From the UHGV virus genome UHGV-0142489: a stretch of 16,164 bases of DNA. The stretch is one strand, 5' to 3'. Below the pieces are notes generated by a model. The model did no database searches, was not told the DNA's origin, and worked only from the letters and a program-made list of their open reading frames with translations. Below, in pieces: positions 1 through 2,713 of this stretch. The stretch's first letter is position 1, and every line of letters begins with the position of its first letter. A program made the translations under genes and the position numbers. This DNA is from a virus.

Positions 1-140
1 TGATTGAAATCAAAATAACGATGGGTTTATTATTACCAAAATGGTAAATTTACAACCCATTCCCATTGTGCCATAGTAATCGGGCACTGGCAAAATCCAG
101 TGCCGGGATTGGCGTCCTGGGTTACTACAGAGGCACATAT

Positions 141-160
141 GCCGCATAAGCGGTTTTTTT
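141..160 (+). terminator. Weak candidate intrinsic terminator at the extreme 5' end of the window
   Basis: 4-bp GC stem ccgc(142-145)/gcgg(150-153) with ataa loop, followed by seven consecutive T (154-160). The stem is short, so this is weak; it would end a transcript arriving from upstream of the window. Confidence 0.3.
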
Positions 161-313
161 ATGTGTAAAGCGCACCTATTCTATGGTGGGCTGTGTGGGG
201 GCACCGAAAGGTGCGCCGGGTCCTTTGTAGCCGGTTACGCCAACCCTGCACAGTTCACCACCAACCGATTGGCGTCGGTAGTGGTGATTAACCTAACTAC
301 AAAGGTGATCACT

Positions 314-1000: not shown

Positions 1001-1042
1001 CGGCGGCGGCACAGGGATGTGCCTTTAAATAATTCTGTACGA

Positions 1043-1101
1043 TTGCAGACCGGGGGTGAATAGCGTACTATTACCTTAAAGGTAAACCATGTGTTTACAT
1101 G
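1043..1101 (+). promoter_or_regulatory. Candidate sigma70-like promoter with two adjacent palindromes (possible operator) upstream of the 69-aa gene
   Basis: TTGCAG (1043-1048), 17-bp spacer, TACTAT (1066-1071). Perfect 7-bp inverted repeat TTACCTT-a-AAGGTAA (1071-1085) begins at the end of the -10. Second palindrome CATGT-gttt-ACATG (1088-1101) abuts the GAGGAGGAG ribosome-binding site (1101-1109). Confidence 0.3.
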
Positions 1102-1111
1102 AGGAGGAGAT

Positions 1112-1321
1112 ATGGGATTTTGGTTCGCTCGTACAAAAACGAGGGATAATGCACCCAGCCCTCAGGCAAAAAATGCAGAAGTTCCGGCGTCAGCGCAGGT
1201 TAACAAGCGTGGTGGTGTGTATATCTCATCACAGCAAATTTCTGAGCTTCCTGAGGTTAAGGAGATGCGTCGTCTCGCTGCTGCAATCGTTAAACAGGAT
1301 CTTGCCACTGTAAGGAAATAG
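1112..1321 (+). CDS. Small hypothetical protein, 69 aa, soluble
   Basis: ATG at 1112 preceded by an exceptionally strong Shine-Dalgarno GAGGAGGAG (1101-1109). Balanced, hydrophilic composition. TAG stop (1319-1321) overlaps the GTG start of the next gene by 1 nt. A hand-counted 100-nt sample (1141-1240) has 50 G+C, like the phage backbone. Confidence 0.65.
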   Translation: MGFWFARTKTRDNAPSPQAKNAEVPASAQVNKRGGVYISSQQISELPEVKEMRRLAAAIVKQDLATVRK

Positions 1322-2184
1322 TGTTGTTAGCTCTTCTAATTATCCCCATTCTGGTTAGTGGTTATATTATGATAACCGCTAACCAGTATCATTATTTCCG
1401 TTTATACCGACATGAAGGCCAGCTTCTTTATATGAAAGTAGCTGCATTAGGTACATATTGCCTTGTTGCTTCGGTAATAATTGCCGCATTTATAAAATAT
1501 AAATATCCTGATTTTCACCTAGTTCACGATATGGTGGAAACTTTTAATGTAACGTCAAAACCAGAAACAGATAGAATTTACATGTGGCTACTTCTTCTGT
1601 CAGTCACATCAATTTGCTTCTCTTTGTGTTATGTATCTTTTGTTTGGCTAAAAGATCTTCTTTTAGGTTGTTTTTATAAACGTGATATTTATGACAAAAT
1701 ATCAGAGGCAATGAAAGCTAGGGTATTGCGAAAAACGTACTCCCAGGGTTCTTTAGATTTGCTATTGCTTGATGCAATCGAATCAGATCCTAAGAAACCA
1801 ATGTTAATTACTTTATCATCAAATAAAGTATACGTTGGAATAATAAATGGTTCTGGTGAGCCAACGGAAAATCAAGGGCCACACCAACACATATCTTTTG
1901 TTCCTTTAATGTCAGGGTACAGAAACAAAGAAAATTTATCTGTTACATTTACAAACGCTTACCCAGGTGAAATCCAAATTAAGCGCAGTGCTGCGATAAA
2001 AGGGATAAGCAAAAAGAAAGTTCAAGGTCTAGAAATTATGGTATCTATAGACGAAATAAGTCATATATCATGGTTTGACTTTGAAGTATATAAGGCAACA
2101 AATAACAAAGTAGAAACAAAGGGGCATGTTGTTAATGTGACCAAAAATGGTCGCAACATATACTACAGAAGTGGCAGGAAATAA
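1321..2184 (+). CDS. Hypothetical membrane protein, 287 aa: three N-terminal TM helices plus ~175-aa cytoplasmic domain of unknown function
   Basis: GTG start at 1321 with AAGGA (1312-1316) upstream. Hydrophobic segments LLALLIIPILVSGYIMI, VAALGTYCLVASVIIAAFI and MWLLLLSVTSICFSLCYVSFVWL, followed by a basic stretch (KDLLLGCFYKRDIYDK), which by the positive-inside rule places the C-terminal domain in the cytoplasm. AT-rich (38 G+C in 1321-1420, hand count). An alternative start at ATG 1366 would delete the first helix. Confidence 0.7.
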   Translation: MLLALLIIPILVSGYIMITANQYHYFRLYRHEGQLLYMKVAALGTYCLVASVIIAAFIKYKYPDFHLVHDMVETFNVTSKPETDRIYMWLLLLSVTSICFSLCYVSFVWLKDLLLGCFYKRDIYDKISEAMKARVLRKTYSQGSLDLLLLDAIESDPKKPMLITLSSNKVYVGIINGSGEPTENQGPHQHISFVPLMSGYRNKENLSVTFTNAYPGEIQIKRSAAIKGISKKKVQGLEIMVSIDEISHISWFDFEVYKATNNKVETKGHVVNVTKNGRNIYYRSGRK

Positions 2185-2209: not shown

Positions 2210-2713
2210 ATGGATAATACTATCTTAGGCGCATTGATAGGTGCAGTTATTGCTATAGTTTCCACTTATATAAATGCAAGACAAGGATACAAAAACAGCA
2301 TAAGATTAGAGCGACAAAAAATATTAAGGGATAAACGCGAGCAATTATTTATAAATTGTATACTTGCTGAAAAAGTCATAAATTCAAGCGCAATTACCAT
2401 TCTCAATTTTGTAAAAAATGCCAGATACCACTCTGATAGTAAATTTGACGTATCAAGAGCGAATCCGTTGCAAACGATGGAAATGCTAATAAACATATAC
2501 CTTCCTGAGTATAAAAAAGAATTACAAGAACTCAATAATGCGTATCAAGAATTTCACAAATACTACTCTCAATATACATGTGCACATACCTTCAAAAATA
2601 TGCCTGATAATGAGAAGTCGAAGTTTATTGAGGAGGCTGATTTTTATGCAAAAAAGATATATGGCAAACTTAATGATATTAAGGACAAGATATCATTTAA
2701 CTCAATAGTATAA
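2210..2713 (+). CDS. Hypothetical membrane-anchored protein, 167 aa: single N-terminal TM helix plus helical K/E/N/Y-rich cytoplasmic domain
   Basis: ORF-track frame 2201..2713 begins at a GTG that is part of the AGGTGG Shine-Dalgarno (2199-2204); the in-frame ATG at 2210 sits 5 nt downstream and is the likelier start. TM segment ILGALIGAVIAIVSTYI followed by basic NARQGYKNSIRLERQKILRDKREQ. Very AT-rich (34 G+C in 2221-2320, hand count). Confidence 0.7.
   Translation: MDNTILGALIGAVIAIVSTYINARQGYKNSIRLERQKILRDKREQLFINCILAEKVINSSAITILNFVKNARYHSDSKFDVSRANPLQTMEMLINIYLPEYKKELQELNNAYQEFHKYYSQYTCAHTFKNMPDNEKSKFIEEADFYAKKIYGKLNDIKDKISFNSIV

What the first reader, a model, noticed from the sequence alone, without database searches (positions are those of the whole stretch)
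1112..1323. Small 69-aa gene with a near-consensus ribosome-binding site, joined to the AT-rich cassette by a 1-nt stop/start overlap
The GAGGAGGAG ribosome-binding site is unusually strong. The gene has backbone-like composition (50 G+C per 100 nt at 1141-1240), yet its TAG stop shares a nucleotide with the GTG start of the AT-rich membrane gene. The foreign cassette therefore appears to be grafted exactly at this junction and to depend on this gene's promoter and ribosome traffic. The small protein could be a regulator or partner of the cassette.
Basis: partly seen in the sequence, partly recalled or inferred. Interest (0 to 1): 0.45.

Follow-up and report, generated by a model that had tools for sequence, protein, structure and literature searches.

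The report
Small partner gene of a mobile membrane-protein pair
The 69-codon gene is not a phage backbone gene onto which foreign DNA was grafted: it is the conserved first gene of an uncharacterised two-gene unit (a small cytoplasmic protein plus a membrane protein) that moves as a pair between prophages and genomic islands of many proteobacteria.

Summary
ATG 1112, stop TAG 1319-1321, GTG 1321 and GAGGAGGAG 1101-1109 are all there, and this ribosome-binding site is the strongest in the window.

The "graft" interpretation does not hold.
- The small gene and the AT-rich 287-aa gene travel together. They are adjacent in 28 of 28 E. coli genomes that carry the large gene.
- They are also adjacent in Symbiopectobacterium, Providencia, Klebsiella, Vibrio, Xanthomonas, Shewanella and P2-like phages.
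- 61 of 80 species loci have a detectable small homologue directly upstream. Most of the others have a look-alike small ORF.
- The two proteins co-diverge (Mantel r = 0.93).
- The real left edge of the acquired unit is about 1087/1088, just before the small gene's ribosome-binding site.
- Tight stop/start spacing is a family trait: a 1-nt overlap in 17 of 55 pairs.

The small protein is modelled as a disordered N-terminus, a beta-hairpin (motif RGG.YI) and a helix. The large protein has three membrane helices and a cytoplasmic Sm-like barrel. Neither matches Pfam, NCBIfam or PADLOC.

My best inference, untested, is that the small protein neutralises or regulates the large one, like an antitoxin, is made in excess, and that the pair acts in phage exclusion. 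Interest is moderate.

The parts
1001..1087 (+). Leader shared by all cargo variants at this prophage locus. It holds hairpin 1008-1023 plus TTTAAAT after the antirepressor stop, a weak promoter-like TTGCAG (1043-1048) -17 nt- TACTAT (1066-1071), and the palindrome TTACCTTAAAGGTAA (1071-1085). The right end, about 1087, is the true left boundary of the acquired two-gene unit.
   Evidence: Homology to phiv142-3, TL-2011b and other phages ends at window 1085-1087. The promoter matches only 7 of 12 positions and the scan did not call it, so it is an inference. The palindrome is invariant in L010 and L013. It also occurs upstream of BRO-N genes, so it is not specific to this gene.
1101..1109 (+). 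Shine-Dalgarno sequence GAGGAGGAG of the small gene. The AGGAGG core is at 1102-1107, 4 nt before the ATG.
   Evidence: Pairing energy -12.3 kcal/mol, the strongest in the window. The AGGAGGA core is conserved in L010 and L013.
1112..1321 (+). Small gene, 69 aa. Residues 1-27 are variable and modelled as disordered, with a hydrophobic MGFWF start. Residues 28-69 form the conserved core: KRGGVYISSQQISELPEVKEMRRLAAAIVKQDLATVRK (beta-hairpin, short helix, long helix).
   Evidence: ORF and translation. Member of phrog_5739. Codon-position test. Family alignments A4-A6. AF2 model, mean pLDDT 65 and 74-86 in the core. 142 clusters and 185 representatives, all small stand-alone proteins.
1312..1326 (+). 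Coupling junction: AAGGA (1312-1316) inside the last codons of the small gene, TAG 1319-1321, GTG 1321-1323 (1-nt overlap) and TTG 1324-1326 (the start conserved in relatives).
   Evidence: Sequence. GTAAGGAAATAG is conserved in L010 and L013, and a TTG start is used there and in L014 and L017. Pairing energy for the large gene is -6.1 kcal/mol. Spacer statistics for the family.
1321..2184 (+). Large partner gene, 286-287 aa. It has three N-terminal membrane helices (N-terminus out and C-terminus in, by the positive-inside rule; inferred) and a cytoplasmic beta-rich domain with an Sm/LSm-like fold. Invariant motifs are GQLLY in loop 1 and P.MSGYR.K in the barrel.
1351..1386 (+). 15-bp hairpin with a 6-nt loop at codons 10-21 of the large gene, followed by a U-rich stretch. 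It may brake or attenuate expression of the large gene.
   Evidence: Flagged as terminator-like. dG = -22.5 kcal/mol, z = -7.6. Present at the same place in 9 of 23 lineages tested. 80.6% of cells are paired, against 55% or less for slid controls. Five pairs change on both sides; 0 of 500 shuffles reach the covariation score.

Best explanation
The 69-aa gene is the first gene of a conserved, horizontally mobile two-gene operon. The second gene encodes a 3-TM inner-membrane protein with a cytoplasmic Sm-like barrel.

Shown:
- The pair is inherited and transferred as a unit, and the two proteins co-diverge.
- The small gene has a much stronger ribosome-binding site than the large gene.
- The large gene starts within a few nucleotides of the small gene's stop, at a weak TTG or GTG codon. 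Its Shine-Dalgarno sequence lies inside the small gene's last codons.
- In part of the family a conserved hairpin sits in codons 10-21 of the large gene.
- The large gene was not found without a small upstream gene. The small gene is occasionally found alone.

Inferred:
- The small cytoplasmic protein binds the cytoplasmic face of the membrane protein through its conserved beta-hairpin and helix core. It holds the membrane protein inactive, in the manner of an antitoxin or immunity protein.
- It is made in stoichiometric excess. Translation of the large gene depends on ribosomes that terminate at the small gene.
- Loss or titration of the small protein, for example when an infecting phage shuts off expression, would free the membrane protein to damage the membrane or block the incoming phage.
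- The pair would then be a prophage- or island-borne exclusion or abortive-infection module.

Likelihoods: about 0.9 that the small gene is an obligate conserved partner in one operon; about 0.4 for the neutraliser and defence mechanism.
For: Linkage:
- 28 of 28 E. coli genomes with the large gene have the small gene directly upstream.
- The same pair occurs in a Symbiopectobacterium chromosome next to a tRNA, outside any intact prophage. It also occurs in a metagenome phage, Providencia, two Klebsiella types, Vibrio, Xanthomonas and a Shewanella Mu-like prophage.
- 61 of 80 species loci have an HMM-detectable small partner at a gap of 0-58 nt. The 16 unmatched loci examined have small ORFs directly upstream, most with the same layout.
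- Mantel r = 0.927, reached by 0 of 2000 permutations.

Protein-level selection:
- Changes in the core are almost all synonymous, [1, 0, 12] by codon position.

Expression asymmetry:
- Shine-Dalgarno pairing is -12.3 against -6.1 kcal/mol in the window.
- The family means are -6.7 against -3.6 kcal/mol; the small gene is stronger in 40 of 55 pairs.
- The spacer is -4 to +3 nt in 35 of 55 pairs, with a 1-nt overlap in 17 of 55. The overlap includes P2-like phages SEN5 and ST15-OXA48phi14.1.
- A covarying hairpin lies in the 5' end of the large gene.

Orphan asymmetry:
- The small gene occurs alone in 2 E. coli genomes.
- It also occurs alone in two lytic Vequintavirinae phage records. Its core there is 52-70% identical to chromosomal partners, and the downstream 667-aa protein is unrelated.
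- No large gene was seen alone.

Context:
- The pair sits in the gpA-gpQ hotspot of P2-like phages, once next to a TIR protein. That region is described as an antiviral hotspot in PMC9122126.
- It sits between int and attP in phiES15 and is integrase-adjacent in Klebsiella, Vibrio and Xanthomonas, the last with BrxR nearby.
- In E. coli relatives the same locus slot holds a YafO toxin cassette.
Against: - There is no functional data of any kind.
- Neither protein matches any Pfam, NCBIfam or PADLOC family or any solved structure by sequence.
- The small-protein model is only moderately confident (pLDDT 65) and has no fold match. Its binding mode is a guess; I could not co-fold the two proteins.
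- The defence-island signal is weak. About 8 of 129 nearest neighbours hit PADLOC, and many loci sit among housekeeping genes.
- A 287-aa 3-TM protein is unlike classical toxins.
- The orphan counts are small (2 genomes, 2 phage records).
- In the family statistics I chose each small-gene start partly by its Shine-Dalgarno strength, which biases that comparison.
- A palindrome upstream is shared with antirepressor genes. Expression may therefore follow the phage's own circuit rather than being constitutive.
Confidence: 0.4

Rival explanations
1. The small protein is an obligatory structural or activating subunit of the membrane protein (a co-effector, assembly factor or sensor adaptor) rather than its inhibitor. 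The pair works only as a complex.
For: The same linkage and co-divergence data fit this reading. Translational coupling is also typical of genes for subunits of one complex. A conserved hydrophobic N-terminal motif (MGFWF, MFF..IG, MSSFF) could dock on the membrane or on the TM domain.
Against: - A strong excess of the small over the large product is not expected for a 1:1 complex.
- An orphan small gene in lytic phages, and in two E. coli prophages that lost the large gene, is hard to explain if the small protein has no role alone.
- No large gene was seen without a small one, which fits protection from toxicity better.
Confidence: 0.3
2. The small protein is chiefly a DNA-binding autoregulator, with a ribbon-helix-helix-like or AbrB/MazE-like beta-strand plus helices. 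It represses the operon's promoter, either alone or as the DNA-binding half of an antitoxin.
For: The predicted core is a beta-hairpin, a short helix and a long helix. The motif 'RV..RGG.YIPS.EI..L' superficially resembles the 'GRVVIPKEIR..L' motif of AbrB and SpoVT (from memory, not tested). A conserved palindrome, TTACC-N5-GGTAA, lies just upstream.
Against: - There is no Pfam hit to RHH, MazE or SpoVT-AbrB families for any of 50 members, even at E <= 1. Only weak DUF5678 hits appear, in 5 of 50.
- No PDB fold match.
- The palindrome also precedes BRO-N antirepressor genes and other cargo that lack this protein. The exact extended pattern was not found at the distant pairs fetched so far. 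It is therefore more likely the operator of a phage repressor.
Confidence: 0.12
3. The small gene is a resident backbone gene of the phage. The AT-rich genes are a later graft joined at its stop codon, using its promoter and ribosomes. Any functional link is secondary.
For: - G+C steps down at the junction.
- In strains 4/4 and Ecol_542 homology breaks right after the TAG and another cassette follows.
- Within E. coli the small gene is 97-100% identical in nucleotides, while the large gene has alleles that are 87-89% identical.
Against: - The small gene is absent from relatives that lack the large gene; their homology ends at about 1087.
- The pair is conserved across proteobacterial classes, with equal GC3 in distant members.
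- The allele breakpoint in strain CE0007a lies at about 1590 inside the large gene, not at the junction.
- The small gene's GC3 of 0.40 is well below the backbone's 0.555.
Confidence: 0.04
4. The small ORF is only a translated leader (an upstream ORF) whose act of translation controls the large gene. The peptide itself has no function.
For: A strong Shine-Dalgarno sequence and tight stop/start spacing suit a coupling device.
Against: - The amino-acid sequence of the C-terminal 39 residues is under strong purifying selection: 12 of 13 changes against L010 are at third positions.
- The motif is recognisable from Enterobacterales to Alphaproteobacteria.
- Orphan copies persist in lytic phages.
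Confidence: 0.02

Closest known systems
Type II toxin-antitoxin operons with the antitoxin first (for example yafN-yafO; a YafO cassette occupies this same locus slot in phage TL-2011b)
   Same: A small upstream gene and a larger downstream gene on the same strand, with the stop and start touching or overlapping. The upstream gene is translated more strongly. Carried on prophages and islands. Orphan copies of the upstream gene exist, but none of the downstream gene. Retained intact in decaying symbiont genomes.
   Different: Neither protein resembles a known antitoxin or toxin family by Pfam, NCBIfam, PADLOC or PDB searches. The downstream protein is a 287-aa 3-TM membrane protein with an Sm-like domain, not a small cytoplasmic enzyme. 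Toxicity, neutralisation and autoregulation are all untested.
Two-component prophage exclusion or abortive-infection systems with a membrane effector (lambda RexA/RexB is the classic case; from established knowledge)
   Same: A prophage-borne gene pair that combines a cytoplasmic protein with a multi-pass inner-membrane protein. Located in accessory (moron) positions.
   Different: No sequence or fold similarity was found. Here the cytoplasmic partner is tiny (about 60-90 aa) and the membrane protein carries its own cytoplasmic domain. No phage-resistance phenotype is known.
Phage morons and variable accessory-gene hotspots (the P2 gpA-gpQ antiviral hotspot, PMC9122126)
   Same: Presence/absence polymorphism at a fixed site between conserved phage genes. 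Lower G+C than the backbone. Alternative cargo at the same site in relatives. Members of this family sit in the P2 gpA-gpQ hotspot.
   Different: The unit's own promoter and terminator are not established. The upstream leader, with its palindrome, belongs to the phage locus rather than to the cargo.
Sm/LSm/Hfq and WYL small beta-barrel domains (C-terminal domain of the large partner)

Membership tests
phrog_5739 (PHROGs family of unknown function) | Full-length match to the family profile | tested here: met
   E = 7.3e-52, residues 1-69 matched to profile positions 1-69 of 69.
Type II toxin-antitoxin system | Two adjacent co-directional genes, the small one first, with the stop and start touching or overlapping | tested here: met
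   TAG/GTG 1-nt overlap, or a 2-nt gap to the TTG. Spacer of -4 to +3 nt in 35 of 55 family pairs.
Type II toxin-antitoxin system | Antitoxin with a recognised DNA-binding fold (RHH, HTH, AbrB/MazE, Phd) | tested here: not met
   No Pfam or NCBIfam hit for the protein or for 50 relatives. No PDB match by sequence or fold. The AF2 model (beta-hairpin plus helices, pLDDT 65) does not decide the question.
Type II toxin-antitoxin system | Toxin homologous to a known toxin family | tested here: not met
   No match in Pfam, NCBIfam, PADLOC or PDB sequences for the 287-aa protein or its 60 relatives.
Type II toxin-antitoxin system | Toxicity of the downstream product, neutralised by direct binding of a labile upstream product | not testable with these tools
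   Needs expression and interaction experiments. The only indirect hint is the orphan asymmetry: the small gene alone in 2 genomes and 2 phage records, the large gene never alone.
Known anti-phage defence systems (PADLOC-DB 2.0.0) | A protein matches a model of a known or candidate defence system | tested here: not met
   0 families for the small and large proteins at E <= 1.
Phage moron | Presence/absence polymorphism at a fixed site among related phages, with deviant composition | tested here: met
   Relatives share the flanks but carry other cargo or none; the boundaries are at about 1087 and about 2714. G+C is 0.31-0.36 against a window mean of 0.50.
Phage moron | Its own promoter and terminator flanking the unit | tested here: inconclusive
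   Only a 7-of-12 promoter-like site lies in the shared leader, and the scan did not call it. No terminator was called directly after 2184. The leader belongs to the locus, not to the cargo.
SpoVT/AbrB-MazE swapped-hairpin antitoxins | Match to Pfam PF04014 or a related family, or to its fold | tested here: not met
   No such hit for any of 50 family members at E <= 1. No fold match. The motif resemblance is recalled from memory only.
Sm/LSm-like fold (large partner, C-terminal domain) | Five-stranded bent beta-barrel that superposes on Sm/Hfq structures | tested here: met
MscS-type mechanosensitive channels | Match to Pfam MS_channel or to MscS structures | tested here: not met

The most novel reading that the evidence does not exclude
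The pair is a new, widespread family of prophage- and island-borne exclusion or abortive-infection systems. A membrane-anchored Sm-like protein is the effector or sensor, and a small antitoxin-like protein made in excess holds it in check. Some lytic phages (the Vequintavirinae records Kashira and ABPH49) have captured the small gene as a counter-defence that keeps the effector switched off.
Probability: 0.2. Interest if true: 0.7.

Novelty: new variant of a known kind. Interest (0 to 1): 0.42.

Why it matters
If the inference is right, this small gene marks an undescribed two-gene module present in many Enterobacterales, Pseudomonas, Vibrio and other proteobacteria. Searches here found about 185 representatives of the small protein at 50% identity, at least 70 clusters of the large protein at 90% identity, and 80 species loci. 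The module rides on prophages, P2-type hotspots and integrase islets. Its effector type, three membrane helices plus an Sm-like barrel, is not found in current defence catalogues. That gives a compact system that can be tested directly for phage exclusion, and a possible phage-encoded antidote.

For annotation the practical lessons are smaller:
- The composition step at 1321 is not a graft scar. The cargo boundary is at about 1087.
- The conserved start of the large gene is the TTG at 1324.

Without experiments the gene remains a conserved hypothetical partner protein, so interest is moderate.

Tried and rejected
- Pfam, NCBIfam, PADLOC and PHROGs scans of both proteins found only PHROGs families of unknown function.
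- Pfam scans of 50 small and 60 large relatives gave only sub-threshold noise. DUF5678 appeared in 5 of 50 small proteins (best E = 0.0014), and a literature search on that name found nothing useful.
- PDB sequence-profile searches found nothing.
- A fold search with the small model found nothing with E < 5.
- A full-length fold match for the large protein was not found; only the Sm-like domain matched. The afdb50 library was unavailable.
- The search for related loci with the small-protein alignment failed because no stretch was conserved enough.
- The alternative ORF 1089-1313 was rejected as non-conserved.
- The idea that the palindrome TTACC-N5-GGTAA is the small protein's own operator was set aside. 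The same element precedes BRO-N antirepressor genes and other cargo.
- A strong defence-island association was not found among nearest neighbours.
- Literature searches for this locus, or for Sm-like membrane defence proteins, found no description of the pair.
- The 667-aa gene after the phage orphan is not a large-protein homologue.
Full report
WHAT THE WINDOW IS. The window matches epsilon15/phiV10-like (Uetakevirus) prophages of E. coli. The finding lies in a variable accessory locus. That locus sits between a BRO-N antirepressor gene (314-1000, Pfam Bro-N E = 5e-20) and small membrane genes plus a gp17-like virion protein on the minus strand (from 2824 on).

CHECK OF THE OBSERVATION.
- Everything described is in the sequence: GAGGAGGAG at 1101-1109, ATG at 1112, a 69-codon ORF, TAG at 1319-1321, and GTG at 1321 opening a 287-codon ORF to 2184.
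- The ribosome-binding site is the strongest in the window. Its pairing with the 16S 3' end is -12.3 kcal/mol, against -2.7 to -10.8 for 17 other gene starts and -6.1 for the downstream gene.
- G+C drops from about 0.49 to 0.31-0.36 across the junction.
- An almost co-extensive ORF in another frame (1089-1313) is not real. It has a stop in one relative and no start in another. Substitutions fall mostly at third positions of the 1112 frame: [10, 4, 22] overall and [1, 0, 12] in the last 39 codons.
- RefSeq already annotates the gene as a hypothetical protein. It belongs to phrog_5739, function unknown.

WHERE THE CARGO REALLY BEGINS.
- Phages that lack the gene (phiv142-3, TL-2011b and others) are homologous to the window only up to about 1085-1087. 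That point is just before the small gene's ribosome-binding site, and their own different cargo follows.
- TL-2011b, for example, carries a small gene plus a YafO toxin there. phiV10 lacks the whole segment.
- Segment 1001-1087 is therefore a locus leader shared by all cargo types.
- The small gene is not compositionally backbone either. Its GC3 is 0.40, against 0.555 for the antirepressor. In distant relatives the small and large genes have the same GC3.

THE TWO GENES ARE ONE UNIT.
- Among 5,426 complete E. coli genomes, 30 have the small gene and 28 have the large gene. In all 28 the two are adjacent. About 440 further genomes share the flanks without them.
- The pair recurs in these places:
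  - a Symbiopectobacterium chromosome next to a tRNA and among housekeeping genes, with proteins 78% and 80% identical to the window's;
  - a metagenomic phage contig;
  - Providencia, two Klebsiella lineages, Vibrio, Xanthomonas and a Shewanella Mu-like prophage.
- In every one of these a small gene lies immediately upstream. Its product shares a core motif, roughly [IV]RV.GRGG.YIPS.EI..LPEV.EM...A..IV.
- I scanned one genome per species and kept 80 loci. An HMM of the small family finds a partner 0-58 nt upstream in 61 of them.
- I inspected 16 of the 19 loci without an HMM hit; the other three have a truncated or fragmentary large gene. All 16 have small ORFs directly upstream, most with the same layout: a hydrophobic N-terminus, a 'V.DGR.S' hairpin motif and then a helix.
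- Distance matrices of the two proteins over 60 pairs correlate at r = 0.927, reached by 0 of 2000 permutations.
- The family is not large: 142 clusters at 90% identity and 185 representatives at 50% identity. Nearly all are stand-alone proteins of 46-163 aa.

THE JUNCTION.
- In relatives the large gene starts at a TTG that corresponds to window 1324: TAG-TA-TTG in Symbiopectobacterium and TAG-AGGCT-TTG in L013. Providencia and Klebsiella also use TTG. The GTG at 1321, and so the exact 1-nt overlap, is peculiar to the E. coli lineage.
- GTAAGGAAATAG, the last codons of the small gene including an AAGGA Shine-Dalgarno sequence, is conserved.
- Across 55 species pairs the spacer is -4 to +3 nt in 35. 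A 1-nt overlap is the commonest arrangement, in 17 pairs. It also occurs in P2-like phages SEN5 and ST15-OXA48phi14.1.
- Close stop/start spacing, and hence probable translational coupling, is a family trait. Coupling itself is inferred, not shown.
- The small gene's Shine-Dalgarno sequence is stronger in 40 of 55 pairs. This statistic is biased by how I picked the starts.

IS THE JUNCTION A GRAFT POINT?
- Generally not. Compared with strain CE0007a, the window is identical from about 800 to about 1590. It then diverges by 13-19%, inside the large gene.
- Compared with STEC1585, divergence ramps up from about 1288.
- Two genomes, strains 4/4 and Ecol_542, do keep the small gene followed by a different cassette (a small ORF plus a DUF2335 protein). 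Homology there ends right after the TAG.
- That orphan copy carries R33C at a near-invariant arginine, plus five synonymous changes.
- The junction can therefore be a recombination joint, but only as an exception.

WHAT THE PROTEINS LOOK LIKE.
- Small protein: AF2 with 50 relatives gives a mean pLDDT of 65. Residues 1-27 are disordered, strands lie at 28-30 and 36-38, and helices at 40-44 and 47-68; the core scores 74-86. It has no fold match and no Pfam family in any of 50 members beyond weak DUF5678 hits.
- Large protein: the AF2 model has pLDDT 78.8. Helices span residues 3-116, forming three membrane segments. By the positive-inside rule the N-terminus is outside and the C-terminus inside; this is my inference. 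Two short helices follow, then a beta-rich domain at 160-281.
- Invariant residues cluster in cytoplasmic loop 1 (GQLLY) and in the barrel (KVYVG, P.MSGYR.K).
- Neither protein matches PADLOC, NCBIfam or PDB sequences.

CONTEXT.
- The pair sits in the gpA-gpQ region of P2-like phages, once beside a TIR protein. PMC9122126 describes that region as a hotspot of antiviral systems.
- It sits between int and attP in phiES15 and next to integrases in Klebsiella, Vibrio and Xanthomonas, the last with BrxR nearby.
- A blind survey of 129 nearest neighbours is mixed. It found five integrases, three gpA proteins, about eight PADLOC-positive proteins and many housekeeping genes.
- Association with mobile elements is clear. 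Association with defence islands is only suggestive.

MECHANISM.
- Shown: an obligate, co-diverging gene pair; strong translation signals for the small gene against weak ones for the large gene; tight spacing; protein-level selection on the small core; and orphan small genes but no orphan large genes.
- Inferred: the small cytoplasmic protein binds and restrains the membrane protein, like an antitoxin or immunity protein. It is produced in excess, and synthesis of the large protein is tied to its translation. Loss of the small protein would release a membrane-active effector, giving exclusion or abortive infection.
- A Serratia lytic phage, and a near-identical phage record, carry only the small gene. 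Its core is 52-70% identical to bacterial partners, and the gene that follows is unrelated. This fits a captured antidote, but it rests on two records.
- I put about 0.9 on partner in one operon and about 0.4 on the neutraliser and defence mechanism.
- The main rival is that the small protein is a required subunit or activator (0.3).

COMPARISON WITH KNOWN SYSTEMS.
- In organisation the pair works like an antitoxin-first type II toxin-antitoxin operon, or like a two-part prophage exclusion system such as RexAB.
- It is not a member of any such family: the sequence and fold criteria were tested and not met.
- It qualifies as phage accessory cargo (a moron) by polymorphism and composition. Its own promoter and terminator are not established.

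VERDICT. The closing guess, that the small protein is a partner of the downstream gene, is right. The small gene is the conserved first gene of an uncharacterised, mobile two-gene module. Novelty: a new variant of a known kind of system (TA-like or exclusion-like gene pair). Interest is moderate (0.42).

Noticed in passing
window 71-265: Rfam finds a P1-type immunity-I control region upstream of the BRO-N antirepressor: c4-a1b1 targets (71-123; 41.7 bits, just below the gathering score), isrK RNA (84-160; 72 bits) and C4 antisense RNA (179-265; 79.5 bits). The antirepressor next to the finding is therefore probably under antisense-RNA control.
   Followed up: partly
window 33-47 and 1071-1085; also L002 1490 and 2542, L006 1552, 2568 and 4971(-), L013 1248 and 3403(-): The palindrome ATTACC-N5-GGTAAA recurs upstream of BRO-N antirepressor genes and of the cargo slot in these phages. 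The window has 2 copies against 0.32 expected by chance. It looks like the operator of a phage repressor shared by the antirepressor and cargo promoters. That would put the two-gene unit under phage control.
   Followed up: partly
window 1351-1386: A 15-bp hairpin (dG = -22.5 kcal/mol, z = -7.6) lies in codons 10-21 of the large gene, followed by a U-rich stretch. It is conserved with compensatory changes in Enterobacterales relatives, for example GTT/AAC to GTG/CAC and AGC/GCT to AGT/ACT. It is absent in distant clades. It may be an attenuator or a translation brake.
   Followed up: partly
window 2210-2713 and 2718-2792: The second AT-rich gene (167 aa, N-terminal membrane helix plus a coiled region, phrog_36918) is a separate add-on. 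It is present in only 8 of the 28 E. coli genomes with the pair. It is absent from the Symbiopectobacterium and metagenome pairs. It displaced the N-terminus of a 53-aa 'transmembrane anchored protein', which survives as a remnant.
   Followed up: partly
window 1089-1111; L010 5980-6000; L013 about 1268-1288: In Symbiopectobacterium, the L013 phage and protein P0007, an ATG seven codons upstream is in frame with the small gene (MF.KEDxMGFW). In the window the same ATG (1089) is out of frame and opens the spurious 74-aa ORF. The strong Shine-Dalgarno sequence would be coding sequence if that start were used.
   Followed up: partly
L008 3037-3228 and L009 2998-3189 (phage records ABPH49 and Kashira): Two lytic Vequintavirinae phage records carry an identical 63-aa orphan homologue of the small protein. 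It has an acidic tail and no large partner. It may be a captured antidote.
   Followed up: partly
L005 3611-4558 (E. coli strain 4/4; also Ecol_542): An orphan small gene with R33C at a near-invariant arginine is followed by a different two-gene cassette: a small ORF plus a DUF2335 membrane protein.
   Followed up: partly
window about 800 and about 1590, compared with L006: Mosaic breakpoints: the window and strain CE0007a are identical between about 800 (inside the antirepressor gene) and about 1590 (inside the large gene) and diverged on both sides. Recombination reshuffles parts of genes at this locus.
   Followed up: no
L010 5690-5775: In Symbiopectobacterium the pair lies about 230 nt from what looks, by eye, like a tRNA gene. 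It sits among housekeeping genes with no intact prophage, so it is probably a surviving fragment of a degraded element. I did not run a tRNA scan on it.
   Followed up: no
L002 2618-3317 (TL-2011b) and E. coli hits H83-H87: The same cargo slot, with the same leader up to GGTAAAC, holds a 59-aa gene that overlaps a YafO-family toxin gene in other prophages. The slot thus hosts TA-like pairs repeatedly.
   Followed up: no
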